From Candidatus Magasanikiibacteriota bacterium (GTDB lineage: Bacteria; Patescibacteriota; Patescibacteriia; Magasanikbacterales; 2-02-FULL-50-9b), in the NCBI GenBank assembly GCA_903893485.1, contig CAITMK010000008.1, positions 10,612 to 74,611 on the forward strand: 64,000 nucleotides of DNA. The letters run 5' to 3'. A program made the position numbers and the translations under genes. Position 1 is the stretch's first letter; every line of letters begins with the position of its first letter. Positions 2,880 to 43,201 of this stretch are shown here, in pieces. Under the pieces are notes generated by a model. The model was not told where the DNA came from. It did no database searches and saw only the letters and a program-made list of their open reading frames with translations.

Positions 2880-2908
2880 TTGACAAATAATGCACGCTGT
2901 GATATCTT
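2880..2908 (+). promoter_or_regulatory. sigma70-like promoter TTGACA-N17-TATCTT for the GC-rich coiled-coil gene
   Basis: TTGACA 2880..2885, 17-nt spacer, TATCTT 2903..2908; followed by GGAGG at 2963..2967 and ATG 2973. Confidence 0.5.
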
Positions 2909-2972
2909 TTCAAGTCCATCATGCCAGCGCACATAGGGTGCAAAGGCAGTCCCGATGGACCGGAGGAACCCA

Positions 2973-4429
2973 TGAATGTCACTATTCAGTATTCAGGCGA
3001 TCGCGCCAAAACACGGGGAGTCCATGCGCTCTTTGTGGAACTTTTGAAAAAAGCGGGGCTGCAATCGGCCGACGCAAAATTGACGGTCACCGCAGGTGCC
3101 AAAGGTAGCTCTGAAAAACACGGTATCGCAGGCATCAGCATCGTTTCGCACGAAATCAAGACAACGCTCAAGCTCTGCTTCCAGCCGGAAGGACCCAGTA
3201 GCGCCCGCTACGGCTTTCTGAGCGTGAAAGGCGTCACGAAAAACGACCTGCAAGCGAAGCTTGAAGCGGCCATTGCGTTGGCCGGCGAAGGCACGCCACA
3301 CAAAGCGCGCAAGCGGAAAACACCGGAAGCGGTGGTTGCCATCTTGATCGCTGAGTTCAACAAATCCGGTCGTGAGCATTGGGAAGCGGCGTTCGATCTG
3401 ATCGAAGCGGCTGCCCAAGTCATGACGATCGTTGTCGGGCTGGGGCAATACCGCCACGAAGTTCGGCACGGCGATTTTCACGACTTGCTGGATGACGCGA
3501 CGGAAGTGTGTAGCTTCTTTCAAGTGCTGCACAGCGTCGGGCTCGCCGACAACGTGGATTGCGGCGAGGGCGTGAACGGCGAAAAGCCCATGCGCATCGA
3601 TCTCGACTTCTACCATGAGGTGGCGGCCGAGTTTGCAAAGCGCAAGGCCGCCGATCAGCCGAAGCCCGATGACAATCCGGCACCGACTAACACTGCACCG
3701 CCCGAGGAACCTACGCCTACGATCAGCTACGTTGCGTTCTTGTACAGGCTTTTCCAGGTTGAGCGGTTCCAGGACATGACCACTGCAGAAGTTTGGCGCG
3801 ATCACGGCACGCAACTCGGCGCCGTAAACGGCACAAACGTCCGCAATCACTTCAAAAGTGGCGTCCAAAACGGCTTGTTGATACCGACCGGCGAAGAAAG
3901 GCAGATTCCTCCACAAAACAAGAACTGCACGGTTCGCAAGTTCAATCCGGCATCCGAAATGGTGCAAGGCTGGGCGCGCGAACTGGGCGTGGAGATTCCG
4001 AAGGTGGCTGTGTTGCCGCCCAAGGAAGAACTGCCGGCGCAGGACAAGCCCATCCGCGAGCGAATTGTTGTGCTGGAACTGAGAAAGGAACGGCACTTGG
4101 CCGATGTCCATAACCTCGATGCCGAAGTGCAGAGCCTGACTCAGGCAATCCAGAACATCGAAGCCGCCAAGCAGGAGGCGCTGGCGGAATTCGCACGGCA
4201 AACGACAGAGCGCGAAGAGATGATCCGCCTTCGCATGAGTTTGCGCGCGCCGCTGCTGGAAGAGATTCCGAAGCTGCAAACGCAGATCAGTGCGTTGCAA
4301 GCGCAGGACGAGTCGGCTATCTTCGCCGCCTTGGAGGAAACCGCTCGCCGCCTCGGCATCCCGGTTGACCAGCTTCTCGCCGCCGGCATGAAACGCGTCG
4401 CCCCCGCCGCCCAAGTCCCCGCTGGCTAG
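2973..4429 (+). CDS. hypothetical protein, 485 aa, C-terminal coiled coil; GC-rich foreign-type cassette gene
   Basis: long ORF (track 2921..4429); GGAGG 5 nt before ATG 2973 supports internal start MNVTIQYSGD; C-terminal heptad-like Q/E/L/A-rich segment; no recognisable catalytic motif; both strands open (GC-rich). Confidence 0.6.
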
Positions 4430-4446
4430 CAACCGCCACCAGCAAA

Positions 4447-4506
4447 CGCACCGGAATTCAGAGACCGTACTTCATCTCTGGGTTCCGCGTGCGGTTTTTA
4501 TTTTTG
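4447..4506 (+). terminator. intrinsic terminator (GC hairpin + TTTTTATTTTT)
   Basis: GCACCGGAAT...CCGCGTGCGGTTTTTATTTTT; paralogous to the terminator after purA. Confidence 0.6.
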
Positions 4507-4529
4507 CCAGACGATCGCCCTTCGCCATC

Positions 4530-4558
4530 TTGACATGAATGCTTGTCAGGCTTAAGCT
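4530..4558 (+). promoter_or_regulatory. sigma70-like promoter TTGACA-N17-TAAGCT for purA
   Basis: TTGACA 4530..4535, 17-nt spacer, TAAGCT 4553..4558; GGAGGT 6 nt before ATG 4603. Confidence 0.5.
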
Positions 4559-4602
4559 TATACGCGGCAACACGACTTATTTTGAGTCACGGAGGTGAAG
4601 CC

Positions 4603-5928
4603 ATGCAACTTTCAAAACCAACAACATCTTTGCTCCCCCGCATCGAAAAAATGCTTACAGGCGACCGCACCATTGCAGTCGTTGGCGCGCAGTTTGGCGA
4701 TGAGGGCAAGGGCAAAATCGTCGAATTGCTTGCGCTCTGGGCAGACATCATCGTTCGTTTCAACGGCGGCAACAACGCGGGCCACACCATTTACGTGGAC
4801 AACAAGCCCGAAGTTTTGCACCTACTGCCATGCGCCATCTTCCAACGTGGCAAAATCTGCGTCGTTGGACAAGGCGTGGTCGTTGATCTGGAAGTCCTGA
4901 AAAAGGAACTCGGCCTAGCAAAAGGCCGTGGATCGATCATCCGCATTGATCGGCGAGCACCGGTGATTCTCCCCATCTACAAGCAAATTGATGGTTTGCG
5001 TGAAGCGGCCAATTCGAAAAAGCTGGGAACAACCGGGCGCGGCATCGGGCCGGCCTATGAAGCGCACGCCAGTCGGTATGCGCTGCGCATGGGTGATCTC
5101 ACGAGCGCCTCCCGCATTCGCGAGGCGCTAAATCGTGGCGGCAACTATTATGCGCAATTGTGCGCGGCTGCCAAAAGTCTCGGTGGCACGCCGCAAACAG
5201 AAGATGACCTGGTCAAAGAGCTTCTCGGTTATTCGCGTATGGTCAAAAATCTACTGTACGACACCGTGGAAATCGTGCGCAAAGCATTGGGTACCAAAAA
5301 AATCATGTTTGAGGGCGCGCAAGCCGCACTCCTAGACGTGAATCAAGGTACCACGCCGTTTGTGACATCCAGCTCATGCACCATCGCCGGTATTTACAGC
5401 ACCTTTGGGCAGCTGCCCATTGATCGGGTGTTCGGCGTGGCCAAGGCTTATGTCACTCGCGTTGGCGAGGGCCCATTCCCCTCAAAAATCGTGGGTGAAA
5501 TGGCCCATGCCCTGCGCGAAGCTGGCAACGAGTACGGCTCCACCACCAAACGTCCGCGCGACGTCGGTTGGATGGACCTGTTTGCACTGCGCTATGCGGT
5601 ACAGATGGGCGGCATCACGGACATCTGCCTCACCAAGGCGGACGTGTTGAATCTGTGGTCTCAGCTGCAAGTGTGCACCAAATACATGCACGGCAAGAAT
5701 GTGGCGAAAGAACATCGCCTCATGACCGCCGAGTATGTGAAAGAATGCACGCCAGTGTTCGAAGAAGTTGAAGGTTGGCACGGTGCAAACCTCACCGGCA
5801 TCAAACTCTTCGGGGATCTGCCGCCCGCGCTGCAACAGTACATCCGCGACATCGCTGCGTTCCTGGGTGTGCCAGTCAGTATGATCGGTATTGGCCCGTG
5901 TCACGACGACATCATCTTCCACGGCTAG
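4603..5928 (+). CDS. purA: adenylosuccinate synthetase, GC-rich
   Basis: QFGDEGKGK P-loop, GGNNAGHT, TTGRGIGP, VTSSS, LTKADVL motifs colinear with E. coli PurA; start chosen at ATG 4603 by GGAGGT RBS (track ORF starts earlier at 4543). Confidence 0.85.
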   Translation: MQLSKPTTSLLPRIEKMLTGDRTIAVVGAQFGDEGKGKIVELLALWADIIVRFNGGNNAGHTIYVDNKPEVLHLLPCAIFQRGKICVVGQGVVVDLEVLKKELGLAKGRGSIIRIDRRAPVILPIYKQIDGLREAANSKKLGTTGRGIGPAYEAHASRYALRMGDLTSASRIREALNRGGNYYAQLCAAAKSLGGTPQTEDDLVKELLGYSRMVKNLLYDTVEIVRKALGTKKIMFEGAQAALLDVNQGTTPFVTSSSCTIAGIYSTFGQLPIDRVFGVAKAYVTRVGEGPFPSKIVGEMAHALREAGNEYGSTTKRPRDVGWMDLFALRYAVQMGGITDICLTKADVLNLWSQLQVCTKYMHGKNVAKEHRLMTAEYVKECTPVFEEVEGWHGANLTGIKLFGDLPPALQQYIRDIAAFLGVPVSMIGIGPCHDDIIFHG

Positions 5929-5949
5929 GCCAACTGCCGCGTCCCAGCA

Positions 5950-6016
5950 ATCGCACCGGAATCCTCCAGACCGAACTCTCGTCTGTTGCAGGAATCCGCG
6001 TGCGATTTTTTATTTA
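5950..6016 (+). terminator. intrinsic terminator, same family as 4447..4506
   Basis: GCACCGGAATCC...GGAATCCGCGTGCGATTTTTTATTT. Confidence 0.6.
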
Positions 6017-6069
6017 CATCTTGTTATTTTTAAAAATTCGCGCTACTGTATATAAGCAATTTTGCGCAT

Positions 6070-12549: not shown

Positions 12550-12590
12550 TTTCCTCTTGATACTAAGGAAAGGCTATCACTTTTTCGTGA
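12550..12590 (-). terminator. intrinsic terminator of ABC exporter operon
   Basis: CCTTTCCTTagtatcaagAGGAAAGG followed by TTTTTTGTTG on minus strand. Confidence 0.6.
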
Positions 12591-12601
12591 TTTTGTCAAC
12601 C

Positions 12602-16166: not shown

Positions 16167-16895
16167 TTACCTCCGATATTGTTGCTCCAAAAACGCCGCA
16201 AGATCCGCCGACAAGCGCGTACCAATCACCGCTGCATCACGCACCCGAAACCGCCGTGCGATTTCAACTTGAATCGCGTTCACGCCAAGTTCACGCGCCA
16301 CGGTGCGCACCGTAAAATTCCCATTCAACCAATCATCTTGTGCTGTTTGCGCCTGTGTTTTGGGCAAAAACACAGAGTAGCCACGCTGCCGAAAAAATTC
16401 TGCAAACGCTTCATCCGGCGCGCCGTGCAAAATCGTTTCACGATTCCCCGTGCCCAGAATCAAATCATATCCATCCCGCGGCGCATACGGCGGCTGATTC
16501 GAAAACCCGTGCACATCAAGCAAAAGCAGTTCCTCCTGCGCCGAGTGACGGAGCATTTGCTGCAAATGCACATAGATTGCACCATGATATTTTTGATACA
16601 ACGCCTCAAACTGGGGCAGCTCAAACGCATCTTCCGGCGCGCGATTGTAATCCAGAAACCTGCGCGACATGAGCCCACGCACCACATTCACCGGATACGT
16701 ACCAATCGCATCGCGCACAATCGGCCACACCGCTCTATCGTGCAAAACAGTTCCGTTAATGCGACGCGGCACAAACGGCTCAAGCTCCAAACCGTGCACA
16801 CCATCGTGCGGCACCGTGATGAGCACCCGCGACGGCGACCGCGCCGCCAGCGTTTGCACATAATTATCAACGCCCACTGCAAAATCCTTACACAT
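16167..16895 (-). CDS. N-formylglutamate amidohydrolase-family (FGase-like) zinc hydrolase, GC-rich
   Basis: VPHDGVHG and LDVHGFS metal-ligand-like motifs; GGAGGT 4 nt before ATG at 16895 (track ORF extends to 16997); antisense ORF 16179..17084 open because of GC. Confidence 0.55.
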   Translation of the reverse strand: MCKDFAVGVDNYVQTLAARSPSRVLITVPHDGVHGLELEPFVPRRINGTVLHDRAVWPIVRDAIGTYPVNVVRGLMSRRFLDYNRAPEDAFELPQFEALYQKYHGAIYVHLQQMLRHSAQEELLLLDVHGFSNQPPYAPRDGYDLILGTGNRETILHGAPDEAFAEFFRQRGYSVFLPKTQAQTAQDDWLNGNFTVRTVARELGVNAIQVEIARRFRVRDAAVIGTRLSADLAAFLEQQYRR

Positions 16896-16934
16896 GCTAA
16901 CCTCCGAAAAGTTGAGAAACAAAAAACGCCCCGC

Positions 16935-16985
16935 AGGGCGCTGAATATCAAAAGCCCTGCGCGTTATTTCGCGCCGGCGTGTGCA
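16935..16985 (-). terminator. terminator-like hairpin in 5' leader of FGase-like gene (possible attenuator)
   Basis: minus: GCGCAGGGCttttgatattcaGCGCCCTGCGGGGCGTTTTTTG located between candidate promoter (17034..17062) and RBS. Confidence 0.4.
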
Positions 16986-17033
16986 AATCCTGACCAAGTT
17001 TTAAAAGTTGCGGTCATTAACATAATTAATGAC

Positions 17034-17062
17034 AGAATAATCTTAAATTGTTCAGCTGTCAA
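17034..17062 (-). promoter_or_regulatory. candidate promoter TTGACA-N17-TATTCT
   Basis: revcomp TGTCAA 17057..17062 and AGAATA 17034..17039 with 17-nt spacer. Confidence 0.35.
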
Positions 17063-17155
17063 ATCATGTTCTATTTGGATATAAATTTAATGCTAAATTA
17101 AATTTTAATTAATTAAATAAAAACGCGCCCCCGACCGTTACAATCGAGGACGACT

Positions 17156-17686
17156 TTACACTGCGCGCGGCCACTCGCCAAATTGCACCCACACCTTTTC
17201 GGCATCCAGCGGTGGTGGGTAATAAAAGCGGCTGCTCAAAGAAATTGTACGCGCAAAACCTTCGTTCACCAGAACCGGCAGCGTGATGTCATCACCAAAC
17301 CGCGGCTCTCGGCTGATGTGACCGATAAGTCGCACGCCGCGCATGGTCTGCACCACAGACTCCAGAAGTGCGGCTTGGATCCCACGACCTGCATACCCAG
17401 ACGCGATCGGCGACCAAACGAGGTGATGTATCGCGGATTGATCTTCGATACGAAAGTACCCGCGCACTATGCCAAATTCAAAAGCATCCATGTTGCGCTC
17501 AAGCAGCGAAAACTTCAAAACAGCGCAGGCTGCGACAAGCACACCGCCCGCATCATGGACCGCATACACTTGCGCATGCGAATTCTGAAAATCGTTGTGA
17601 GGAAAGCCGATGCACAGCTCCGCACACGCATTCCTACCAGCCCACGCACCAACGCGTGAAATCGTAAAACCTTGTGGCATCGCCAT
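17156..17686 (-). CDS. GNAT-family N-acetyltransferase, GC-rich
   Basis: acetyl-CoA binding-type motif VWSPIASGYAGRGIQAALLESVV; GGAGG 5 nt before ATG. Confidence 0.7.
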   Translation of the reverse strand: MAMPQGFTISRVGAWAGRNACAELCIGFPHNDFQNSHAQVYAVHDAGGVLVAACAVLKFSLLERNMDAFEFGIVRGYFRIEDQSAIHHLVWSPIASGYAGRGIQAALLESVVQTMRGVRLIGHISREPRFGDDITLPVLVNEGFARTISLSSRFYYPPPLDAEKVWVQFGEWPRAV

Positions 17687-28893: not shown

Positions 28894-30303
28894 TTAGCCT
28901 GCCAAACAAGCAGATTTGGTATACCGCCACGATGTCAGTGGGCAATTTTCTTTCGGAACAGGAATTGTACATGAACCAACGCCATTTGGTGTGGTTATGT
29001 GACAAAATATTTTATCCTGACAAAGCGCCGATGTTAATGCAATTGTGTTTGCACCACAAGACGAAGACGCTGCAGCTTTAGTCATGCTTGCACAATTATC
29101 TCCAGTAGGACTAAAAATAACCTGCGTTGAATCATTACTCATACAGTAATAGCCGGTTCCACTAAACTGACAATCTTGTGGACATGTCGCATTTGATTCA
29201 CTTGCACTACACGTGCCATCGCCACACGTATTCGCTGGAACTTGTATAACACCTCCGGTATCTGCATTACACACACTCTGTATCGAGTGTGGAACACCTC
29301 CAGCGGCTGCACAGGCTGATTTAGATACATACATACTGCATCCAACATAACTGCCAACCTGTTTTGTGCAATAGGTAAGATTCAAACAATCTAGCGTTGG
29401 CATTGTTTTGCCAGCAAGATCAGCCGAAACCTGAGCGTCACATTTTGTCTGCGCATCTGCAACGCTTACCGCATTAACCGGCTGTGTACCATACGCATAA
29501 CATGTCGCGGTAAAATCACCAAAAGTTTTTTCTTTGCAGAAGTATGTTGATGATCCGCCACTCCCTGTACCCGAACAATCGCTTGGGCAGCTAGTTACTG
29601 TTTCCGTAGCATCACACGTACCATTATTATTGCAAGTACCGTTTGCTGGTGGTGGAGTTAATACATTACCAGTGCCGGTGCCGGTTAAATCACACTTGCC
29701 GGCAACACCAGCCGCATCAACACCACAATTTGCATCTACACTACATGATTGTCCAGGTTTTTCCCCACCAATACAAGTTGGAAAAGGATTTGCATTTGTC
29801 TGACAATCAACCGGACAACTATCGACAGTTTCCCCGGTATCGCAAGTACCATTACCACAAACCGCTCCTGCGGCAACCGTTGTGGCGGTAGTATTACTAC
29901 TCGCCGTTCCCGAATTAATCGCTGGCGCGACCGTTGAAAATAAAAAGTTAGTAATAACATATGCCGCCATGACCAAAATAATACCGATTGTTGCGTCGAT
30001 AAGCGTATCACGACCTTCGCTAACCGATTTGGTATCGCCGTGTGCGGTCATCCAACGGAACCCACCATACACTGCAAAACCCAAAAACACCAAGCCGGTT
30101 AAACTAAGCGCGATGCCTAAAATATCACCGACCAAGGTTGGCAATGTTTTTTTGGTTGTAACAGCAGTGCTAAAAACGGTCGTGCTCTTAGCGGTTTCAT
30201 CGAGACCAAATGCATCTGCATGTGCCACAATCGGCATTGCGAAAGAAAACATGGTTAATGAAATTGCCAAGGGCGCCAAAATTTTTGCAAATAAACGTTT
30301 CAT
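28894..30303 (-). CDS. pilin-like N-domain fused to a large Cys-rich extracellular repeat region (469 aa)
   Basis: N-terminal 135 aa paralogous to 30383..30817; three copies of C-G-[ND]-G-T-C-[DS]-x2-E-[ST]-x2-[ST]-C-P-x-D-C; many additional Cys. Confidence 0.65.
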   Translation of the reverse strand: MKRLFAKILAPLAISLTMFSFAMPIVAHADAFGLDETAKSTTVFSTAVTTKKTLPTLVGDILGIALSLTGLVFLGFAVYGGFRWMTAHGDTKSVSEGRDTLIDATIGIILVMAAYVITNFLFSTVAPAINSGTASSNTTATTVAAGAVCGNGTCDTGETVDSCPVDCQTNANPFPTCIGGEKPGQSCSVDANCGVDAAGVAGKCDLTGTGTGNVLTPPPANGTCNNNGTCDATETVTSCPSDCSGTGSGGSSTYFCKEKTFGDFTATCYAYGTQPVNAVSVADAQTKCDAQVSADLAGKTMPTLDCLNLTYCTKQVGSYVGCSMYVSKSACAAAGGVPHSIQSVCNADTGGVIQVPANTCGDGTCSASESNATCPQDCQFSGTGYYCMSNDSTQVIFSPTGDNCASMTKAAASSSCGANTIALTSALCQDKIFCHITTPNGVGSCTIPVPKENCPLTSWRYTKSACLAG

Positions 30304-30382
30304 AGAAAAAAATCATCCGGAAGTTTTGCTTCCGGATGATAGTATATCAAACTTTTTCGCTTTTTGACGAGACTTATACACC

Positions 30383-30817
30383 TTATGGTGTTGATGAGGC
30401 GGCAGCTCCGGGCGCAGCAGTATTAAGCGCGGGTGTGATGGTTGTAAAAAGATAATTCGTAACAATATAGGCGGACAAAACCAAAACGATACCAATCGAC
30501 GCATCGATCAATGTTTCGCGTCCTTCAGTGACTGATTTTGAATCGCCACGTGCAGTCATCCAGCGGAAGCCGCCGTATACCGCATAACCTAAAAATACCA
30601 AACCAACTAAACTTAAGGCAACACCTAAAATATCACCAACCAATGTTGGCAAAGATTTTTTAACCGTAACATCTTGTTTAAAAACACCCGAAGCATTTGC
30701 AGTTTGGTCTAAACCGTACGTATCGGCCTGCGCATGTGCCACCAGTGGTGCTGCCATTGTAAAAAATGTTAATGAAATTGCCAAGGGCGCCAAAATTTTT
30801 GCAGATAAACGTTTCAT
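30383..30817 (-). CDS. T4SS-type pilin-like protein
   Basis: MKRLSAKILAPLAISLT signal; YGGFRWMTARGD core; close paralog of N-domain of 28894..30303. Confidence 0.6.
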   Translation of the reverse strand: MKRLSAKILAPLAISLTFFTMAAPLVAHAQADTYGLDQTANASGVFKQDVTVKKSLPTLVGDILGVALSLVGLVFLGYAVYGGFRWMTARGDSKSVTEGRETLIDASIGIVLVLSAYIVTNYLFTTITPALNTAAPGAAASSTP

Positions 30818-30886
30818 AGAAAAAAATCATCCGGAAGGGATCGCCTTCCGGATGATAGTATAGCAAACTGATTTGCTGTGGGGAAA

Positions 30887-31300
30887 TTAAACGCCTGTAA
30901 AACCCGTTGCGCCTGTAACATTCAAGAGTGAACCGATCACAAATGATGAAAGTGCGTAAGCAGACAAGATAATTACAAAGCCGATAACACCAGAAAGCAA
31001 AATGCCTTTTGCAGCATCTACATCCTTTTCGCTACCACCTGAGGTCATCCATTTAAAACCACCATAAATAACCAAAACGATTGCTACAACACCAAGAAGT
31101 GACAAGATAATCTTAATAACAGAACCAACGGTCTGGTATAAGTTGTTCTGACCAAGACCTGCATTCTGTGCGATGGTGTTAAGACCAAGATCGCCAGGAG
31201 CTGGTTGGCCGGTGCTCTGAGCAAAGGCTGGAGTAACAAATGCAGTTGCCATCATGGTAGCTGCGGTAATAAACGATGCGTATTTTGCAATGTGCTTCAT
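30887..31300 (-). CDS. T4SS-type pilin-like protein
   Basis: signal peptide, YGGFKWMTSGGSEKD core. Confidence 0.6.
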   Translation of the reverse strand: MKHIAKYASFITAATMMATAFVTPAFAQSTGQPAPGDLGLNTIAQNAGLGQNNLYQTVGSVIKIILSLLGVVAIVLVIYGGFKWMTSGGSEKDVDAAKGILLSGVIGFVIILSAYALSSFVIGSLLNVTGATGFTGV

Positions 31301-31338
31301 AAGAATAAATTAGATTGATGAAAGTATATCACAGATTA

Positions 31339-32184
31339 TCACTTGGGGATACAACATTTGCGATTTGGGCCACCAGAACACAAACCCGATTTGATAGTTG
31401 AGCTATTTGGACAATCAGCTTTTTGCATACATACGCCTGCCTTACCAGACGCTGGCTGATTACATTTTGAATCATCACCTGAGACGATCAACTTACATTC
31501 TGCGGTATTCAGTGCATATTTAGCGAGCGTACAATTTGTTTTTAAAATTTGAACACCGCAGTTAATACCATCCGCACAATAAATAAGATCATCACACTTG
31601 CCCACAGTTACCTGTCCACTATCAATGCCCGGCCACGCGGAGCATTGTGTTGCCGCATCATTATCATCAACGGCCGTAAGATTTGCTTCTTTAGAACCAT
31701 CATAACAACAATATGCAACTTTTGTAGGGCCGGTCGGCGCTGGCGTTACCGGTGGCGTTGGCAATCCAGTTGCCGCAGGTGGTGGAGCTGCTGCGGTGCC
31801 CGTTCCCGTGGTGTCACCTCCGGCCGTAAGATTCGTAAACAAAAAATTCAAAACCACGTACGCCGAGAACATGACCAAAATACCAACGGTAGACCAAATA
31901 AAAACCTGTTTTCCCTGCTCTACCTGTTTAGAATTACCCATGGAAGTCGTCCACAAAAAACCACCCCATACAAACATTGCAAGTGCAACTGAACCAACAA
32001 TACCAAATAAAGTGTTGATAATTATTTTTGCAATCGATTGCACCGGCGTCTTTTCGCTAACAGTATTGAGCAGCGGATTATAAAGTTTAACCGATGTGGC
32101 ATCCGCCGCATGAGCCAACATTGGCGTGCTTAATAATAAAAAAGCTCCGAAGGTAAGTAATATAAAGGAACGAAAAAATCGCAT
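31339..32184 (-). CDS. pilin-like N-domain fused to Thr/Pro linker and Cys-rich C-domain
   Basis: WGGFLWTTSMGNSKQV core, TGTGTAAAPPPAATGLPTPPVTPAPTGP linker, 12 Cys in C-domain. Confidence 0.6.
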   Translation of the reverse strand: MRFFRSFILLTFGAFLLLSTPMLAHAADATSVKLYNPLLNTVSEKTPVQSIAKIIINTLFGIVGSVALAMFVWGGFLWTTSMGNSKQVEQGKQVFIWSTVGILVMFSAYVVLNFLFTNLTAGGDTTGTGTAAAPPPAATGLPTPPVTPAPTGPTKVAYCCYDGSKEANLTAVDDNDAATQCSAWPGIDSGQVTVGKCDDLIYCADGINCGVQILKTNCTLAKYALNTAECKLIVSGDDSKCNQPASGKAGVCMQKADCPNSSTIKSGLCSGGPNRKCCIPK

Positions 32185-32188
32185 AGCC

Positions 32189-32551
32189 TTATGATAAACT
32201 TCCGAACAAAAAGTTCAGAATAATATATGAAGAGAACATGACCACAACACCGACGGATGCCCAAATAAAAATATGCTTTGCTTTATCCACTTGTTTGGAG
32301 TTGCCCATGGCGGTCATCCAAAAAAACCCAGCCACCACATACATAATCAAAGCGGCCGACCCGGTCAGACTAAAAATTACATTGATCACCATTTTTGAAA
32401 CAGACTGAACGGGTTTATCCAAAGAAACTGTTTTTGCAAGTGGGTTTTGAAGCGGTTCAACGACTTCACCCGCAGCGTGAACAAATAGTGGCGTACCAAA
32501 AAGTAGCAAAGTGCCAAAACTAAGTGCAGCGATATACTGAAAAAAACGCAT
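32189..32551 (-). CDS. T4SS-type pilin-like protein
   Basis: paralog of N-domain of 31339..32184 (AGFFWMTAMGNSKQV). Confidence 0.6.
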   Translation of the reverse strand: MRFFQYIAALSFGTLLLFGTPLFVHAAGEVVEPLQNPLAKTVSLDKPVQSVSKMVINVIFSLTGSAALIMYVVAGFFWMTAMGNSKQVDKAKHIFIWASVGVVVMFSSYIILNFLFGSLS

Positions 32552-32590
32552 AGTAAAATCAGTATATCTTTTTTTTTAGAAATTGACTAC

Positions 32591-33400
32591 TTACTGAGCA
32601 GGCAAACAACACTGCACCGTCGCAGCTCCCGGACAAAGTCCAGATGCAAAGGCGCCATTGCCTCCATTACATGGGGAGCTATTGGATGTACAAGTTCCGC
32701 CAAGTTTTCCGCAAAGCGTGGTTTGTGCCGCAGCCTTTGTTGGAAAACAACATTTTTTACCAGTTGCACACGCGCCATCAATCAAAGTACCAGGACATGT
32801 TGCCGTTGAAACACAATTATTATCAGTTCCCGTAAGAAAACTACATTGCGCGTCGGCAGTGACGCCTGTCATTGGAACAGAAATTGCATAAGATTGTGCG
32901 GCACCTCCACCCGCAGCACCGGCCGCAGCTGCAGGACCAGATGCTTTCGGCAAAAATTGATCCCCTTCTGAACCGACAAATGTTTTTATACCGTATGCAA
33001 TTATTGTATAGGAAGAAAACAAAATAATTAAACCAATAACGCCAGAAACCATTAAATCTATACCCTTTGAAACCATTTTCGAATTACCAGCAGACATTAC
33101 AAAATAAAAACCGCCAACCACAAAGACAACTAATGCCACCGCACCGGAAATGCCAAGCATAAAATTGCCAATGCGCGCCATAACTGATTTCACATCGCCG
33201 AGCGAATAGTCGCGGCTTGCACCATCCTTACATGGTTGCCCAAGCGGCGTGGTTACCGTAGTGCCAGATGCATAATCTTCGGGGCAACGACCAGTTGGAT
33301 CAGGAATTAAACCTGCAGCATGAACAGGCGTTGCGTAAAGCAAGCCGCCCATACAAGCCAATATCGCATAAGTTGCAAAAATCAATTTGGCGCGGATCAT
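32591..33400 (-). CDS. pilin-like domain fused to Cys-rich C-domain
   Basis: VGGFYFVMSAGNSKMV core, Ala/Gly linker, Cys-rich tail ending CCLPAQ (compare CCIPK in 31339..32184). Confidence 0.55.
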   Translation of the reverse strand: MIRAKLIFATYAILACMGGLLYATPVHAAGLIPDPTGRCPEDYASGTTVTTPLGQPCKDGASRDYSLGDVKSVMARIGNFMLGISGAVALVVFVVGGFYFVMSAGNSKMVSKGIDLMVSGVIGLIILFSSYTIIAYGIKTFVGSEGDQFLPKASGPAAAAGAAGGGAAQSYAISVPMTGVTADAQCSFLTGTDNNCVSTATCPGTLIDGACATGKKCCFPTKAAAQTTLCGKLGGTCTSNSSPCNGGNGAFASGLCPGAATVQCCLPAQ

Positions 33401-35728: not shown

Positions 35729-36679
35729 TCACTGGTTGCCGCGACTGTGAAATTTGTCATGAATCTTCTTCAACTGCGGATCCGTCACGTGCGTATACAC
35801 CTGCGTCGTGGTAATTGAAGCATGTCCAAGCATCACCTGCACCGAACGAATGTCTGCGCCGTTGTGTAATAAATCAGTTGCAAATGAATGGCGCAAAACG
35901 TGCGGCGTAATTTTTTTCATGATGCCGGCAACGTGCGCATATTTTTCTACCATGCGTTGCACGCTACGCGGCGTTAATCCTTCCATCACTTTTTTACTCG
36001 TTTTTTCTTTTTCACGGCTCGCGTGCGCGCGATCATGATTCGCAAATAAAAATGGCGACATATCGCGGCGCAACTGCAAATATTTTTTCACCCAATCGCG
36101 CGCTTCAGGTGATACAAAAACCACGCGACGTTTTTTTCCTTTACCAAGCACACCAATTTCTCCACGCGTTAATTCCACGTCATCGCGACGCAACCCCGTT
36201 AATTCTGAAACACGAAGTCCAGTTGAAAATAACAATTCAATTATTGCCCGATCGCGCGCCGCAATTAAATCCGATTCTCCACTTTGCTGTGGCGCCGCCA
36301 AAAATCGTTTTAATTCATCACCCGACAAAAAAGAAACCGTGCGCTGCGGCATTTTACCAAGTTCAACTCGCTCTGCAGCAAGCGTCACAATTTCACGCTT
36401 CGATAAATATTTTAAAAAACTACGTACGGCAATTAAATGATAATTTTGCGTTGATGCGCCAAGTGACTGCCCCTGTTCATCGGTATATCGATGCAACCAC
36501 AAACGAAATTGACGCACCCCTTCGTAAGTAATCTGATCGACATTCGGCCGTTTGTTGGTGACAAAAAATTTTGTAAAGCGGCGCAAATATAATTCGTAAT
36601 TTCGGCGCGTCAGAAGTGATCGATTTTTTTCAATTTCCAAATAATCTAAAAAATCATGCACCGCGATTTCAATGCGCAT
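35729..36679 (-). CDS. xerD: tyrosine recombinase, XerC/XerD-like
   Basis: C-terminal HVLRHSFATDLLHNGADIRSVQVMLGHASITTTQVYTHV (R-H-R-Y catalytic region). Confidence 0.75.
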   Translation of the reverse strand: MRIEIAVHDFLDYLEIEKNRSLLTRRNYELYLRRFTKFFVTNKRPNVDQITYEGVRQFRLWLHRYTDEQGQSLGASTQNYHLIAVRSFLKYLSKREIVTLAAERVELGKMPQRTVSFLSGDELKRFLAAPQQSGESDLIAARDRAIIELLFSTGLRVSELTGLRRDDVELTRGEIGVLGKGKKRRVVFVSPEARDWVKKYLQLRRDMSPFLFANHDRAHASREKEKTSKKVMEGLTPRSVQRMVEKYAHVAGIMKKITPHVLRHSFATDLLHNGADIRSVQVMLGHASITTTQVYTHVTDPQLKKIHDKFHSRGNQ

Positions 36680-37763
36680 ATGCCATTTCAGATTCATCAA
36701 TGAGCGCCGCAAGCGCGCGATGTGGATCTTCTATTGCGCCATCAATCCATGCACGAATAAATTCTGCATTGATAACGGTATGGGGTGTCGCATCAATAAT
36801 TTTTTCAAATTCTGCAGCCGCAATCCAAACACGTATTTCGAGCGCACTATGCGCCGCAACTAATAATGAATATTTTTCGCCCGCATTTTTTTGCGCATCA
36901 TGCATCGCGCGCGTTACCAGCGCCAACTGAAAAGCCGCTTTTTCTAAATTTCGAAGCGCGACTTCCCCGCGCTGCGCACCAGTTGTATAACCTATTTCTG
37001 GCGCATTACGTTGAACAAAAGGATGCCGTCCCGAAATAATTGGTAACGGCCCATCGAAAAGCGCTGCATGATTTGGATGTAAAATTTTAGCACTAAATTC
37101 ATTATTTTTTCTACTCAGGGCAATCAAATCATCAGAAAAATCTACATCTTTTTTTTCAAAATTTTCAGTATGTATATAAGGAAGCAATTTCCCTACCGTT
37201 TTTAAACCTGAACTTGTACTTACAAAAACAGAACCGTCCAAATTTATTAAAATATCTTTTTCACCTGGTTGCAATGTTCGCACACCACTCGGTGTAGCGT
37301 ATTGAAATGGCTGTTCTGCAGAAAATTTTTTAAGTCTTCCGACATATTGCGCACGCGCCTTCCAAAAAATGCCTGCACTACGCAAAAGTTTTACTACAAA
37401 GCCCGCGGGCGTAATAAAAATATTTTTTTCTTGCGGCATTATTTTTTCTCGCCCTACCGCATCAAGCATGGTCCGATCAAAAATTTCTTCTTGTATAATC
37501 TCACCTGCTGAATTAATTTTTCCCGCATATTCAAAATTAAATCCGTTCCAATTGTGGATTGCTTGCGGTATCGCCTCTTTGTACGCAACACGGCAAGTAG
37601 GAATACCCGCATCATCATAACAAATAACCGCATCGATGCGTCCATGCTGAGGCGAAAAAATAAATCGATGTTTTGCATCAGATTGTTCTAAAAGGCCAGG
37701 CTGTGGCCCATCCCATTTAGTTTGTGGAGGTTGTAAAGCAACTGTTGAAAGCATGTCATGCAT
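36669..37763 (-). CDS. hypothetical protein (364 aa)
   Basis: long ORF without recognised motif; overlaps xerD start by about 11 nt. Confidence 0.45.
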   Translation of the reverse strand: MHDMLSTVALQPPQTKWDGPQPGLLEQSDAKHRFIFSPQHGRIDAVICYDDAGIPTCRVAYKEAIPQAIHNWNGFNFEYAGKINSAGEIIQEEIFDRTMLDAVGREKIMPQEKNIFITPAGFVVKLLRSAGIFWKARAQYVGRLKKFSAEQPFQYATPSGVRTLQPGEKDILINLDGSVFVSTSSGLKTVGKLLPYIHTENFEKKDVDFSDDLIALSRKNNEFSAKILHPNHAALFDGPLPIISGRHPFVQRNAPEIGYTTGAQRGEVALRNLEKAAFQLALVTRAMHDAQKNAGEKYSLLVAAHSALEIRVWIAAAEFEKIIDATPHTVINAEFIRAWIDGAIEDPHRALAALIDESEMAYAH

Positions 37764-37937
37764 TATAGCAAGAAATACTTTTTACGCCCATGAAATAAAA
37801 AACGATGGTGGACCTCACCGGACCAAGTTCGGACTCTGATTGAGAAGGCGGTACTGTTCGGACTAGATGAGAAGTGGAAGAAAAGAGCTAACTCTAGGCT
37901 AGGAATATTCAAAAAGCAGAGAAGAAAATGACCCTAA

Positions 37938-38010
37938 TCCGGCAATATGGACCCTACCGGAATTGAACCGGTCGCCTCTTCCATGCCATGGAAGCGCTCT
38001 ACCAAATGAG
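37938..38010 (-). tRNA. tRNA-Ala (anticodon GGC)
   Basis: cloverleaf GGGCCCTTAGCTCATTTGGTAGAGCGCTTCCATGGCATGGAAGAGGCGACCGGTTCAATTCCGGTAGGGTCCA with G3:U70; CCA not encoded. Confidence 0.85.
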
Positions 38011-38505
38011 CTAAGGGCCCAAGAACGCAAAAATAATAACATTCACTTTTTAAAATGTAAAGAAATTATTGTTTGGGAGCACCGCTTATGCGTATTGCTC
38101 GTCGATCAAGAGATAAGATTTGATCTTCAGCATCTTGATATGGTTCTTTTTTTATTAAGAATTTATTCGCAATACGTTCAGCCTTTACCGATTGAGAGGC
38201 GTGCCCCGTATTACTTATCTGTTTTTTATACTTTTTATTTGAAAATTGAAATGGAGCAAGCAAATGAATCGCAAGCCTGCTTAGAAAGCTGTTTTCAACT
38301 TTATTCAGCTGTTTTAATGTGCATTTTTCTTTCATGAAGTTCAGTATAGCATTTGTGCATAACTGTTGATAACTTTGGGGATAAAGCTGTGATTTCTGTG
38401 TGTAAATACTGTTGAAAGTGTGATATAGTTCTATTTGATAACAATAATATATACATTTTTACTTTATGTTTCACGTGAAACATAAGAAAAAATGGTCGAA
38501 AATCT

Positions 38506-38853
38506 ATGGTTTCACGTGAAACATCCCATAACCTATCTGACGATTTTATAGCTGGAATAATTTCGGTTTCAGGTAGTTTTCTTCATACAAAAACTGCACG
38601 CGTAGAACAATTTGGTTTTCAAATAAAAACACCAAAAGAAAACTTTGCGCTTCTTGAAATGATACGACTCAGACTTGGCTTAAAAGGATCCGTAAAAATC
38701 TATTCGGCAGATGGATCAGAATATGCATTACTTATTACAAGATCAAAAAAAGAGCTTTTGAACAAAATAATTCCATTTGTTGAACATAAACTACTTGGAA
38801 TTAAGCTAAATCAATATTTAAATTGGAAAGATAAACTCCAATCTATTTTATAG
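38506..38853 (+). CDS. LAGLIDADG-family homing-endonuclease-like protein, motif acidic residues replaced by Ser (likely degenerate)
   Basis: DDFIAGIISVSGSF aligns to LAGLIDGDGSF motif; downstream FQIKTPKEN...LLITRSKKELLNKIIPF typical of LAGLIDADG fold; sits between two tRNAs. Confidence 0.5.
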   Translation: MVSRETSHNLSDDFIAGIISVSGSFLHTKTARVEQFGFQIKTPKENFALLEMIRLRLGLKGSVKIYSADGSEYALLITRSKKELLNKIIPFVEHKLLGIKLNQYLNWKDKLQSIL

Positions 38854-38962
38854 TTCTGTATAGAACTATAAAATATTCAGGTACAAAATTACTTCTTTAG
38901 CAGATAACGAAAGTTGGACGATGATGTCGTCCAACTTTGGCAAACTATTAAAGAAGTATTTT

Positions 38963-39038
38963 TGGTGCCCCCGAGAGGATTTGAACCTCTATTAACCCCT
39001 TAGGACGGGGCAGTTCTATCCAGTTGAACTACAGGGAC
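38963..39038 (-). tRNA. tRNA-Arg (anticodon CCT), CCA encoded
   Basis: GTCCCTGTAGTTCAACTGGATAGAACTGCCCCGTCCTAAGGGGTTAATAGAGGTTCAAATCCTCTCGGGGGCACCA. Confidence 0.8.
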
Positions 39039-39121: not shown

Positions 39122-40186
39122 ATGTTGGAAACCGCACTTCTCATCGTTTTTGCCTTACTCATCACTGTTTTGCTTGCACTACTATATCGTTTATACCAGA
39201 AAAATCAAGAGGCTGGATCAGCGCAGACAAATAATCTAGAGCACCGTTTTGAACAGACCATGAGTACCGTATTACAACAACTTAATGCGACAACTCGCCA
39301 AGTAAATGACCGCTTAAAGGAAAATTCAGAGGTCTTACATCGTTCACAGCAAACAATCGGCGAACGCTTAGACAACAGCCAACGTGCATATGCGGCTGTT
39401 ACCAACAAATTATCAGAACTTCAGGAAGCAAACAAACGAATTTACGACGTGGGTAAAGATATTTCATCCCTTCAGGAAATTTTGCGTTCGCCAAAGCTTC
39501 GTGGAACAATTGGTGAATTATTTTTAGGCAACTTACTCGCTCAAATCCTGCCACCAGATCATTACACTGAACAACATCGGTTTCAGAGCGGCGAAGTTGT
39601 GGATGCCGTCGTTAAACTGCGCGACAACATGTTAGTTCCAGTAGATTCAAAATTTCCACTCGAAAATTTTCAAAAAATGTTATCGGCGCCAGAGGATGAC
39701 AAAGAATCCTTCCGCAAAATGTTTGTAAACGACGTAAAAAAACACATCGATAAAATTGCAAAACAATATATTTTGCCGGACGAGGGCACGCTGAATATTG
39801 CGCTCATGTATATTCCTGCGGAAAATGTGTACTACGAAACGATCGTGAAGGGAATTGAGGAAAATGATTTGGTGCATTATGCGCATGCAAAAAACGTAAT
39901 TCCAGTTTCCCCAAACAGCCTTTATGTATACCTGCAAACTATTTTGCTTGGCTTGCGCGGTATGCAAATCGAACAATCAGCACGCGAGATGATGCAAAAT
40001 CTGTCACGTTTGAAAGGCGATCTTGAACGATTCAACGGTGACTATATGCTTGTTGGAAAACATCTGACCAATGCTGGTCGCGCATTCGATGACTCACGAA
40101 AACGCTTGGAAAAATTTGATACGAAATTTGAAAAAGTTGCACAAGTGGAATTAGCAGAGACGCCGATCGTACTAATCGAGGAATAA
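39122..40186 (+). CDS. rmuC: DNA recombination protein RmuC
   Basis: N-terminal TM helix, long coiled coil, C-terminal RmuC-type nuclease-like domain (LNIALMYIPAENVYYE); start chosen after tRNA. Confidence 0.8.
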   Translation: MLETALLIVFALLITVLLALLYRLYQKNQEAGSAQTNNLEHRFEQTMSTVLQQLNATTRQVNDRLKENSEVLHRSQQTIGERLDNSQRAYAAVTNKLSELQEANKRIYDVGKDISSLQEILRSPKLRGTIGELFLGNLLAQILPPDHYTEQHRFQSGEVVDAVVKLRDNMLVPVDSKFPLENFQKMLSAPEDDKESFRKMFVNDVKKHIDKIAKQYILPDEGTLNIALMYIPAENVYYETIVKGIEENDLVHYAHAKNVIPVSPNSLYVYLQTILLGLRGMQIEQSAREMMQNLSRLKGDLERFNGDYMLVGKHLTNAGRAFDDSRKRLEKFDTKFEKVAQVELAETPIVLIEE

Positions 40187-40190
40187 AAAA

Positions 40191-40350
40191 GTTCTGATAC
40201 TGACCACTCATGTGTTGACCTCAGTGCGCACATCGCACACTCCGATGCAATATCCCAGAAAGACCGGGGTGCAAACATGGTTTGGAGTGATTGAGTTAGC
40301 GGTTCCCTTAGGTTAAAAGGCCCGGACAGCTTGTGATCAGTATCAGAACA
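40191..40350. repeat. about 160-bp element bounded by 17-bp terminal inverted repeats (MITE-like or structured ncRNA)
   Basis: GTTCTGATACTGACCAC (40191..40207) vs GTGATCAGTATCAGAAC (40334..40350), 16/17 complementary; GC-richer interior with TTGAC...TGCAATAT. Confidence 0.4.
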
Positions 40351-40400
40351 AATAATAATATCATAAAAAAGAGGCCTTGTCAATATGCGCAAACAAAAAA

Positions 40401-40434: not shown

Positions 40435-40695
40435 TTAAAGTGATTTCAACTTTTTAGCTAAGCGTGATTTTAAGCGCGCTGCTTTGTTGGCGTGGATTAC
40501 GCCGCGCTTTGCGGCCTTGTCCAATGCCTGCTGCAAACTACGAGCTGCTGATGATGCTTCAATTTTGTTTTTAGCATCTACTGCAACGCGAGCTGCTTTT
40601 TTCAATTTACGAACACCGTCACGAATTGCTTCGTTGCGGATGAACGCTTTTTTTGACTTACGTAACGCTTTTTTTGCTTGTTCAAGATTTGGCAT
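40435..40695 (-). CDS. rpsT: 30S ribosomal protein S20
   Basis: MPNLEQAKKALRKSKKAFIRNEAIR... typical S20. Confidence 0.95.
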   Translation of the reverse strand: MPNLEQAKKALRKSKKAFIRNEAIRDGVRKLKKAARVAVDAKNKIEASSAARSLQQALDKAAKRGVIHANKAARLKSRLAKKLKSL

Positions 40696-40744
40696 AATTA
40701 TTCAATGGAGAGCATGGAATATGTTTTTGCGTGAGGGAAGCATA

Positions 40745-41735: not shown

Positions 41736-41764
41736 TTGACAAAAAGCCGAATTTCTAATAGTCT
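41736..41764 (+). promoter_or_regulatory. promoter TTGACA-N17-TAGTCT
   Basis: TTGACA 41736..41741, TAGTCT 41759..41764; AAGGAG 8 nt before ATG 41797. Confidence 0.5.
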
Positions 41765-41796
41765 TGCCTCCAGGCATCACACAAGGAGATATTGCC

Positions 41797-42378: not shown

Positions 42379-42395
42379 CTAGCAGCGAAACATGC

Positions 42396-42452
42396 GGTCC
42401 GTCCGGATCTGAGTCCATCACTTGGGGCTCTCCGGACGGCGTTTTTATTTTG
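42396..42452 (+). terminator. intrinsic terminator, family shared with 43202..43256
   Basis: GGTCCGTCCGGATCTGAGTCCATCACTTGGGGCTCTCCGGACGGCGTTTTTATTTTG. Confidence 0.65.
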
Positions 42453-42466
42453 ACAAGCTATGAGGA

Positions 42467-42495: not shown

Positions 42496-42551
42496 TTTCC
42501 CATGCCTGTAGCAAATTGCTGCACACATCCCAACATCGCGTGAGGCTATCA

Positions 42552-43193: not shown

Positions 43194-43201
43194 TCGAACT
43201 A

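What the first reader, a model, noticed from the sequence alone, without database searches (positions are those of the whole stretch)
2880..6016. Foreign cassette pair: 485-aa coiled-coil protein of unknown function followed by a stand-alone purA
A GC-rich unknown protein with a C-terminal coiled coil has its own promoter and terminator. It is followed by a separately promoted, canonical adenylosuccinate synthetase. The two terminators are paralogous, with GCACCGGAAT...CGCGTGCG then T-tract. 

If the host is a reduced Patescibacteria-like genome, de novo purine synthesis is usually absent, so an acquired purA that converts IMP to adenylosuccinate would be a notable metabolic patch. Otherwise the pair could be a phage or defence-associated nucleotide-modifying module. 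A PurZ-like role is disfavoured, because the catalytic Asp in GDEGKGK is retained.
Basis: partly seen in the sequence, partly recalled or inferred. Interest (0 to 1): 0.7.

Follow-up and report, generated by a model that had tools for sequence, protein, structure and literature searches.

The report
Acquired purA beside orphan DNA-binding gene
In the chromosome of a tiny Patescibacteria-type bacterium sit two self-contained, unusually GC-rich genes, a very divergent but apparently working adenylosuccinate synthetase (purA) and an orphan winged-helix/coiled-coil protein; both look horizontally acquired, are probably not a functional pair, and belong to a wider set of such islets in this genome.

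Summary
Window 2880-6015 holds two monocistronic units, each with a TTGACA-N17-TANNNT promoter, a GGAGG ribosome-binding site, an ORF and a hairpin plus T-tract. They are ORF485 (2972-4429) and purA (4603-5928).

- **Composition:** GC is 57% against 45% for the window, GC3 is 0.69 and 0.65 against 0.30-0.44, and codon usage is foreign.
- **Terminators:** the two share an identical stem base, one bulged C and the same tail.
- **Host:** a chromosomal Patescibacteria stretch, with dnaA/dnaN nearby. One neighbour gene is 70% identical to a Magasanikiibacteriota MAG.
- **purA:** it keeps the catalytic and substrate residues checked and passes one NCBIfam PurA cut-off. It fails the PurZ model. No protein found is more than 46% identical.
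- **ORF485:** it has three distant relatives among 1.8 billion representatives. None lies next to purA. A low-confidence model shows a winged helix followed by a helix of about 100 residues.

No defence, phage or plasmid link was found. The island is one of several: nine genes in the window share this GC3-rich codon class, including a second pair with paralogous promoters and terminators.

The most likely reading is horizontally acquired, autonomously expressed islets, with purA as an IMP-to-AMP patch. Its partner purB could not be checked. Interest is moderate.

The parts
2880..2908 (+). Promoter-like site P1 (TTGACA, 17 nt, TATCTT, with TG before the -10) for ORF485
   Evidence: The motif TTGACA-N17-TANNNT occurs 12 times in the window against 0.73 expected.
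2962..2966 (+). Shine-Dalgarno GGAGG, 5 nt before the ATG of ORF485
   Evidence: Read directly from the sequence.
2972..4429 (+). ORF485, an orphan 485-aa protein. Residues 1-228 form an N-terminal alpha/beta region, 229-249 a Pro-rich linker, 253-338 a winged helix, 359-461 a long helix, and 465-475 a short conserved C-terminal helix.
   Evidence: GC3 is 0.69.
4447..4505 (+). Terminator-like hairpin T1 plus T5-A-T5 tail
   Evidence: (-29.7 kcal/mol, z -5.4).
4530..4558 (+). Promoter-like site P2 (TTGACA, 17 nt, TAAGCT) for purA
4591..4595 (+). Shine-Dalgarno GGAGG, 7 nt before the ATG of purA
   Evidence: Read directly from the sequence.
4603..5928 (+). purA, adenylosuccinate synthetase, 441 aa, with an N-terminal extension of about 20 aa
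   Evidence: GC3 is 0.65.
5951..6015 (+). Terminator-like hairpin T2 plus T6-A-T3 tail. It is a paralogue of T1, with the same stem base and the same bulged C.
   Evidence: (-28.6 kcal/mol, z -5.7).

Best explanation
Two independent, horizontally acquired, self-expressed gene units lie side by side in a Patescibacteria (Magasanikbacteria-like) chromosome.

**Unit 2 (purA).** It encodes a catalytically competent, GTP-dependent adenylosuccinate synthetase that converts IMP plus aspartate to adenylosuccinate. Together with an adenylosuccinate lyase encoded elsewhere, it would let the cell make AMP from salvaged IMP, hypoxanthine or guanine nucleotides. The chemistry is inferred from conserved residues. 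The physiological role is inference.

**Unit 1 (ORF485).** It encodes a lineage-restricted protein whose winged helix and roughly 100-residue helix suggest a dimeric or oligomeric DNA-binding protein, either a regulator or a nucleoid or segregation-type factor. This is inferred from a low-confidence model. It has no required link to purA.

**Origin.** Both units come from the same GC3-rich gene pool as seven other genes in the window. The most plausible source is a GC-richer Patescibacterium or one of its extrachromosomal elements, because the units already use the host's promoter consensus and Shine-Dalgarno sequence. The shared terminator reflects common history, not joint function.
For: **Composition and codon usage**
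- The GC and GC3 jumps coincide with the promoter and terminator edges.
- RSCU correlation of ORF485 and purA with the native gene pool is 0.10 and 0.32. With the other GC-rich islets it is 0.79 and 0.72.
- Native genes show the reverse pattern, 0.76 and 0.08.
- The highly expressed native gene rpsT has native GC3 of 0.36.

**purA looks functional**
- D13, K16, N38, H41, T128/129, R131, R143, Q224, V273, T300/301, R303, R305, K331, D333, G416 and P417 are all conserved in the alignment to the Yersinia pestis PurA chain 3hid, numbered as E. coli PurA; S414, also checked, is replaced by Gly.
- NCBIfam NF002223 scores 429.9 against a cut-off of 402.

**No close source is known**
- The best of 5.8 billion protein clusters is 45-46% identical. 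The top hits are a median 55% identical to each other.

**ORF485 is independent of purA**
- An exhaustive phmmer search found only three relatives.
- Each relative is a stand-alone promoter-ORF-terminator unit in a different neighbourhood.
- Two of the three are also GC-rich islands in their own genomes.

**Winged helix**

**Host**
- The APH neighbour is 70% identical to a Candidatus Magasanikiibacteriota MAG.
- The window carries dnaA, dnaN, polA, ribonucleotide reductase and four T4SS-pilin-like genes.

**Literature**
- Genomic islands and individual transfers make up as much as 13% of Patescibacteria genomes. Most occur between Patescibacteria and include nucleotide-metabolism genes (PMC12455944).

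**Possible strain variation**
- Contig ends in independent assemblies fall at the island edges, 2779-2823 and about 6003-6021.
Against: - No integrase, transposase, tRNA gene or flanking direct or inverted repeat marks the island.
- No donor was identified. Unameliorated composition implies recent arrival, yet nothing similar has been sampled.
- ORF485 relatives are only about 30% identical, yet two of them are also GC-rich islands. A simple 'recent transfer from one donor' does not explain this.
- purB and other salvage genes were not seen. Only about 71 kb of the genome could be read.
- The TIGR00184 PurA model is missed narrowly (377 against 395.6).
- The ORF485 model is weak: mean pLDDT 67.5, pTM 0.31, built from a four-sequence alignment. 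The N-terminal half has no fold match.
Confidence: 0.6

Rival explanations
1. The two genes form one functional module, for example a phage-derived or defence-associated nucleotide-modifying system in which ORF485 directs or regulates a PurA-like enzyme.
For: The genes are adjacent, on the same strand, of the same composition, and have paralogous terminators.
Against: - Each gene has its own promoter and terminator.
- The three ORF485 relatives have unrelated neighbours and no purA.
- ORF485 has only weak coiled-coil PADLOC hits (JetC, ZorB) and no PHROG hit. It has no relatives in IMG/VR, phage or plasmid collections.
- PurA keeps Asp13 and fails the PurZ model (PMC12884076).
Confidence: 0.05
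2. The genes are long-standing native genes. Their GC3-rich codon usage is maintained by selection, for example for expression level or mRNA stability, and not by foreign origin.
For: - They use the genome's own promoter consensus and Shine-Dalgarno sequence.
- ORF485 relatives that have diverged to about 30% identity are still GC-rich in two other genomes. This suggests the composition is maintained over long periods.
Against: - rpsT, a highly expressed native gene with the same promoter type, has GC3 of 0.36.
- Most genes of this codon class are orphans without Pfam matches.
- ORF485 is absent from almost all sequenced Patescibacteria.
- The nearest sampled relative shows no synteny at this locus.
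- Third positions rise in both C and G, which indicates a general shift and not codon-specific selection.
Confidence: 0.12
3. The islets are cargo of a cassette-capture process. Circular or linear promoter-ORF-terminator cassettes integrate by recombination at terminator hairpins, leaving the hairpin duplicated on both sides of the newcomer, either Campbell-type or integron-like.
For: - Two of three adjacent GC-rich pairs have unrelated ORFs followed by paralogous terminators. These are T1 and T2 here, and roughly 95% identical terminators at 42.40-42.45 and 43.20-43.25 kb.
- T1 and T2 keep an identical stem base and bulged C, while their inner stem differs.
Against: - The third adjacent pair (16.2-17.7 kb) has unrelated terminators.
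- No recombinase is adjacent. The only tyrosine recombinase is Xer-like and 30 kb away.
- No attC core sites (RYYYAAC / GTTRRRY) are present.
- No further copies of the hairpin were found elsewhere. Matches in public contigs were chance hits without T tails.
Confidence: 0.1
4. The island is an assembly chimera or contamination from a GC-richer organism.
For: The composition switches abruptly, and some assemblies break at the island edges.
Against: - The junctions on both sides are spanned at 99.9-100% identity by contigs from several independent assemblies and assemblers.
- Promoters of the host consensus sit exactly at the unit starts.
Confidence: 0.02

Closest known systems
Bacterial adenylosuccinate synthetase PurA (Pfam PF00709; NCBIfam NF002223)
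   Same: The match is full length. The P-loop GDEGKGK is present, along with His41, Gln224, Arg143, Thr300/301, Arg303/305 and the guanine-specific TKxD motif.
   Different: - It is at most 46% identical to anything found.
- It falls just below the TIGR00184 cut-off.
- It has an N-terminal extension of about 20 aa, and carries G302K, R306D and S414G.
- It sits as a lone GC-rich unit with no neighbouring purine gene.
Phage PurZ (2-aminoadenylosuccinate synthetase)
   Same: It belongs to the same superfamily. The PHROG family that purA hits (phrog_1211) is annotated with that name.
   Different: - Asp13 is retained, whereas phage PurZ always has Ser (PMC12884076).
- The PurZ model scores 97 against a cut-off of 300.
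- No datZ, mazZ or dpoZ-type neighbours are present.
- The best IMG/VR relative is 33% identical.
Genomic islets and phage 'morons': autonomous promoter-ORF-terminator units of deviant composition. HGT islands are already described in Patescibacteria (PMC12455944).
   Same: Each gene has its own promoter and terminator. Composition and codon usage differ from the neighbours. The cargo is largely orphan genes.
   Different: They lie in a chromosome near the replication origin, not in a prophage. They are GC-richer, not AT-richer. No mobility genes or repeats are present. The comparison with morons rests on my own knowledge of that concept.
Integron gene cassettes (ORF plus 3' attC hairpin)
   Same: Tandem unrelated ORFs are each followed by a related imperfect hairpin with a conserved base, a variable centre and an unpaired base.
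   Different: Every unit has its own promoter. The hairpins end in T-tracts like intrinsic terminators. There are no attC core sites and no IntI.
Winged-helix DNA-binding proteins with a dimerising helix (PadR, MarR, replication terminator protein RTP, TubR)
   Different: There is no sequence-level match to any family. ORF485 has an extra 230-residue N-terminal region of unknown fold, a helix of about 100 residues, and a conserved C-terminal LG(I/L)xVxxLL motif.

Membership tests
PurA (adenylosuccinate synthetase) | Passes curated family HMM thresholds | tested here: met
   PF00709 scores 443.8 bits against a cut-off of 27. NF002223 scores 429.9 against 402. TIGR00184 is narrowly missed at 377 against 395.6.
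PurA (adenylosuccinate synthetase) | Catalytic Asp13 and His41, P-loop GDEGKGK, and the IMP, aspartate and GTP ligand residues (E. coli numbering, from established PurA structural literature) | tested here: met
   D13, K16, N38, H41, T128/129, R131, R143, Q224, V273, T300/301, R303, R305, K331 and D333 are all conserved. S414 is replaced by Gly.
PurA (adenylosuccinate synthetase) | Enzymatic conversion of IMP + Asp + GTP to adenylosuccinate, with a partner PurB in the same genome | not testable with these tools
   Only about 71 kb of the genome could be read, and it contains no pur genes.
PurZ | Asp13 replaced by Ser (or Gly), plus a PurZ-specific HMM match | tested here: not met
   Asp is retained. 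NF038379 scores 97.1 against 300. The residue criterion comes from PMC12884076.
Intrinsic (Rho-independent) terminator | Stable GC-rich hairpin immediately followed by a U-tract, downstream of a stop codon | tested here: met
   The hairpins fold at -29.7 and -28.6 kcal/mol, with z -5.4 and -5.7, followed by T5-6 tails. Actual termination was not tested.
Genomic island / horizontally acquired islet | Deviant composition and codon usage relative to the host genome | tested here: met
Genomic island / horizontally acquired islet | Mobility signatures: integrase or transposase, tRNA target, flanking repeats | tested here: not met
Genomic island / horizontally acquired islet | Variable presence among close relatives | tested here: inconclusive
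   Contig breaks fall at both island edges in independent assemblies. No empty site was recovered. The nearest sampled relative is not syntenic.
Integron cassette array | attC sites with R''/R' core sequences and a nearby IntI integrase | tested here: not met
   No RYYYAAC or GTTRRRY cores are present at the hairpins. The only tyrosine recombinase is Xer-like, at 35.7 kb.
Anti-phage defence systems (PADLOC) | Match to a known defence protein model | tested here: not met
   Only weak coiled-coil hits to JetC and ZorB, at E about 1e-3.
Patescibacteria (CPR) host | Nearest relatives of the flanking native genes are CPR genomes | tested here: met
   The APH neighbour is 70% identical to a Candidatus Magasanikiibacteriota MAG. 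This rests on a single gene. Four PF18895 pilin-like genes are consistent with it.

The most novel reading that the evidence does not exclude
The nine GC3-rich promoter-ORF-terminator units in this window are cargo of an unsampled GC-rich gene pool that circulates among Patescibacteria. That pool could be an unknown plasmid, virus or other extrachromosomal element. The units would enter chromosomes by recombination at terminator hairpins, which would explain why unrelated neighbouring ORFs carry duplicated terminators. On this reading, purA is a metabolic gene carried by that pool and ORF485 is one of its own DNA-binding maintenance proteins.
Probability: 0.1. Interest if true: 0.7.

Novelty: new member of a known kind. 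Interest (0 to 1): 0.35.

Why it matters
Patescibacteria are thought to depend on partner organisms for nucleotides (own knowledge). A recently gained, self-expressed purA would be a concrete example of horizontal transfer restoring one step of purine interconversion in such a reduced genome.

The wider pattern also matters. About 13% of this stretch is GC3-rich, mostly orphan, autonomously expressed genes with no identifiable donor. That points to a gene pool feeding these genomes that current databases barely sample.

ORF485 defines a very rare uncharacterised protein family, with four members among about 15 billion predicted proteins. HGT islands in Patescibacteria are already documented (PMC12455944), so this case extends known biology and does not overturn it.

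Tried and rejected
- **Donor search by terminator sequence.** I scanned IMG/VR and JGI metagenome contigs for GCACCGGAAT-N20-50-CCGCGTGCG. The 128 matches read were chance hits in GC-rich DNA, none with a T-tail.
- **Empty-site search.** I used the flanking APH gene in GTDB genomes. It gave one relative at 70% identity and no synteny.
- **Exact look-ups of flanking proteins.** These returned only the same genome. A 33-nt divergent end on one contig (L004) looks like an assembly tip and matches nothing else.
- **Profile search with the four-member ORF485 alignment.** It added no new members.
- **Family searches for ORF485.** Pfam (whole protein and per domain), NCBIfam, PHROGs and PADLOC gave nothing for the ORF485 sequence, and a profile of the four-member alignment found nothing meaningful among PDB sequences.
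- **Fold searches.** These recognised only the winged helix. The afdb50 library was unavailable.
- **Synteny between ORF485-family loci.** An apparent large-ORF plus glyoxalase neighbourhood was tested by BLASTP and rejected.
- **Rfam on the island.** No riboswitch or ncRNA was found.
- **Extending the genome downstream to look for purB.** Only short contigs were returned.
- **Literature.** No paper linking Patescibacteria and adenylosuccinate synthetase was useful.
- **Missing self-hit for PurA.** This is explained: its 90% cluster is represented by a 148-aa fragment.
Full report
**1. What is in the sequence**

The window averages 44.7% GC, but 3.0-6.0 kb is 57%. The rise begins near 2900 and ends near 6000.

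Two ORFs on the + strand fill this stretch:
- ORF485 runs 2972-4429, with its ATG 5 nt after GGAGG.
- purA runs 4603-5928, with its ATG 7 nt after GGAGG.

A 479-codon antisense ORF across ORF485 is a by-product of the high GC. The + strand frame has the ribosome-binding site, the promoter, the terminator and protein-level homologues.

GC3 is 0.69 and 0.65, against 0.30-0.44 in the nine flanking genes.

Each ORF is preceded by TTGACA-N17-TANNNT, at 2880-2908 and 4530-4558. This motif occurs 12 times in the window against 0.73 expected by chance, so it is this genome's promoter consensus.

Each ORF is followed by a long bulged hairpin and a T5-6 A T3-5 tail, at 4447-4505 and 5951-6015.
- Folding energies are -29.7 and -28.6 kcal/mol, with z -5.4 and -5.7.
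- The two hairpins share CCAGCAAnCGCACCGGAAT on the 5' side and TCCGCGTGCG plus the tail on the 3' side, including one unpaired C. Their inner stems differ.

Promoter and terminator activity are inferred from sequence only.

**2. The locus is real and chromosomal**

The same arrangement is found at 99.9-100% identity in at least five assemblies from different samples and assemblers.

The window carries dnaA and dnaN (54-57 kb), polA, class I ribonucleotide reductase, gltX, lexA/dinB-like genes, rpsT and four T4SS-pilin-like genes.

The neighbouring phosphotransferase gene (APH family, 1737-2711) is 70% identical to one in a Candidatus Magasanikiibacteriota MAG. That taxon belongs to the Patescibacteria and Parcubacteria groups. 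The host assignment rests mainly on this one gene.

**3. purA**

- The protein matches PF00709 end to end (E 7e-133). It passes the NCBIfam PurA equivalog NF002223 (429.9 against 402) and narrowly misses TIGR00184 (377 against 395.6).
- In the alignment to the Yersinia pestis PurA structure chain 3hid, numbered as E. coli PurA, the residues known from the PurA structural literature are conserved: Asp13, Lys16, Asn38, His41, Thr128/129, Arg131, Arg143, Gln224, Val273, Thr300/301, Arg303, Arg305, Lys331 and Asp333. Ser414 is replaced by Gly.
- The PurZ model scores 97 against a cut-off of 300. A recent survey reports Asp13 conserved in 99% of the PurA group and replaced by Ser in all phage PurZ (PMC12884076).
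- I conclude that this is a normal, GTP-dependent adenylosuccinate synthetase.
- It is unusually isolated in sequence space. The best of the 120 top hits is 46% identical, while those hits are a median 55% identical to each other. The best IMG/VR relative is 33% identical.
- No other purine gene lies in the 64-kb window or in the 7 kb upstream.

**4. ORF485**

- No Pfam, NCBIfam, PHROG or PADLOC family fits, either for the whole protein or per domain. A PDB sequence search with the four-member alignment profile also gave nothing meaningful.
- An exhaustive phmmer run over 1.84 billion representative proteins found three relatives, at 31%, 32% and 31% identity. One of them is a 173-aa fragment.
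- The alignment shows three conserved features:
  - a core around W..AFDL...VVGL..YRHE(V/L)R;
  - an FNP motif in the central domain;
  - a C-terminal LG(I/L)xVxxLL motif.
- An AlphaFold2 model built from this four-sequence alignment is of modest quality, with mean pLDDT 67.5 and pTM 0.31. Its layout is:

| Residues | Predicted element |
|---|---|
| 1-228 | alpha/beta N-terminal region |
| 229-249 | disordered Pro-rich linker |
| 253-338 | three-helix plus beta-hairpin domain |
| 359-461 | one continuous helix |
| 465-475 | short terminal helix |

- The long helix has a modest heptad signal.
- My reading is a dimeric or oligomeric DNA-binding protein of unknown target. This is inference.

**5. 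Are the two genes a functional pair?**

Probably not. The three ORF485 relatives sit in three different neighbourhoods:
- next to an ABC transporter and an IS30-like gene;
- next to an HD-domain gene and a receiver-like gene;
- next to a small coiled-coil gene.

None is near purA. Each relative is again a stand-alone unit with a TTGACA-N17-TAnnnT promoter and a hairpin plus T-tail. No phage, plasmid or defence link was found.

**6. The wider pattern**

Per-gene GC3 and codon usage split the window into two classes. Besides ORF485 and purA, seven genes are GC3-rich:

| Coordinates (strand) | Note |
|---|---|
| 16167-16997 (-) | FGase-like |
| 17156-17686 (-) | no family match |
| 41794-42378 (+) | no family match |
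| 42552-43193 (+) | no family match |
| 46065-46898 (-) | no family match |
| 47848-48729 (+) | metallo-beta-lactamase fold |
| 49683-50600 (-) | GC3 0.92 |

- ORF485 and purA correlate with the pooled codon usage of those seven at 0.79 and 0.72. With 35 native genes the values are 0.10 and 0.32.
- Native genes give the opposite picture, 0.76 with the native pool and 0.08 with the islet pool.
- Most of the seven have no family match.
- Six of the twelve perfect promoter motifs precede genes of this class.
- The pair at 41.8-43.25 kb repeats the architecture seen here: unrelated ORFs (BLASTP E 0.42) with paralogous promoters and roughly 95% identical terminators.
- A third adjacent pair, at 16.2-17.7 kb, has unrelated terminators.
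- rpsT is a highly expressed native gene with the same promoter type, and its GC3 is 0.36. This argues against high expression as the cause of the GC3 bias.

**7. Interpretation**

The simplest account is horizontal acquisition of autonomous expression units.
- Patescibacteria genomes are reported to carry many islands and individual transfers, amounting to as much as 13% of genome length. Most transfers occur within the group and include nucleotide-metabolism genes (PMC12455944). The GC3-rich class here is also about 13% of the window.
- The use of the host's promoter consensus and Shine-Dalgarno sequence, together with the CPR-restricted distribution of ORF485, suggests a GC-richer Patescibacterium or one of its elements as the source. 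Names of Magasanikbacteria MAGs indicate GC values from about 33% to 56%. This step is inference.
- Contig ends at 2779-2823 and about 6003-6021 in independent assemblies hint at strain variation, but no empty site was recovered.

**8. What remains unexplained**

- There are no mobility genes or flanking repeats.
- No donor is known, even though the composition is unameliorated.
- ORF485 relatives that have diverged to about 30% identity are still GC-rich islands in two other genomes. This suggests a persistent GC-rich pool rather than a single recent donor.
- Terminators are duplicated around unrelated ORFs in two pairs. Recombination at terminator hairpins would explain this, but I could not find further copies to test the idea.

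**9. Verdict**

The 'foreign cassette' reading is supported, and the PurZ reading is excluded. The 'functional pair or defence module' reading is not supported, and the 'metabolic patch' reading is plausible but untested.

The finding is a new, divergent member of known kinds: PurA, and horizontally acquired islets in Patescibacteria. It comes with a very rare uncharacterised winged-helix protein family. Interest is moderate.

Noticed in passing
window 41736-43255: A second GC-rich cassette pair. Two unrelated orphan ORFs (41794-42378 and 42552-43193; BLASTP E 0.42) each sit behind GGATTGACA-N17-TAGTCTT and in front of roughly 95% identical hairpin terminators (GTCCGTCCGGAT...CTCCGGACGGCGTTTT).
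   Followed up: partly
window 16167-17686, 46065-46898, 47848-48729, 49683-50600: Five more GC3-rich genes share the codon usage of ORF485 and purA. They are FGase-like, a metallo-beta-lactamase fold, and three orphans, one with GC3 of 0.92. All but the FGase-like gene are followed by a strong hairpin terminator, and three of them have a promoter-like site of the host type upstream (two exact motif matches). Together with the two pairs they make up about 13% of the window.
   Followed up: partly
window 40186-40383 (-): A perfect promoter motif (TTGACA-N17-TATTAT) is followed by a roughly 160-nt region closed by a 16-bp terminal stem and a U-tract (MFE -54.9 kcal/mol, z -3.8). It has no ORF of note and no Rfam match even at E 5. 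This is a candidate unnamed small RNA next to rpsT (40435-40695, -).
   Followed up: partly
window 28894-33400 (-), terminators at 30306-30374 and 30820-30877: An array of four T4SS-pilin-like (PF18895) paralogues. Near-identical terminators (ATCATCCGGAAG...CTTCCGGATGA plus T7) follow two of the paralogues (after 30383-30817 and before 28894-30303). This is a native-composition example of duplicated terminators.
   Followed up: no
window 35729-39038: A Xer-like tyrosine recombinase (35729-36712) lies near tRNA-Ala and tRNA-Arg. Between the two tRNA genes is a 32.5% GC stretch (38-39 kb). This may be an AT-rich integrated remnant.
   Followed up: no
L006 11702-11806 (locus of the ORF485 relative P0122): The gene after P0122 begins like an IS30-family transposase (my reading of the N-terminal sequence, not tested). 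All three assemblies that carry P0122 end close after it, at most about 235 nt downstream, which suggests a repeated mobile element beside that family member.
   Followed up: no
L004 1-33 (contig ERZ18662466 scaffold_15168), joins the window at 2777: One assembly has 33 nt of unrelated, partly palindromic sequence (GATGGCAGACTTATGCATGCGTGCATGCAGATT) to the left of the island edge. It is probably an assembly tip, but it could be an alternative junction.
   Followed up: partly
window 12571-12599 (-) and 40739-40767 (-): Perfect promoter motifs sit in unexpected places. One is downstream of the ABC-transporter gene, pointing towards the 3' end of the C39-peptidase gene. The other is inside the 3' end of holA and drives rpsT.
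   Followed up: no
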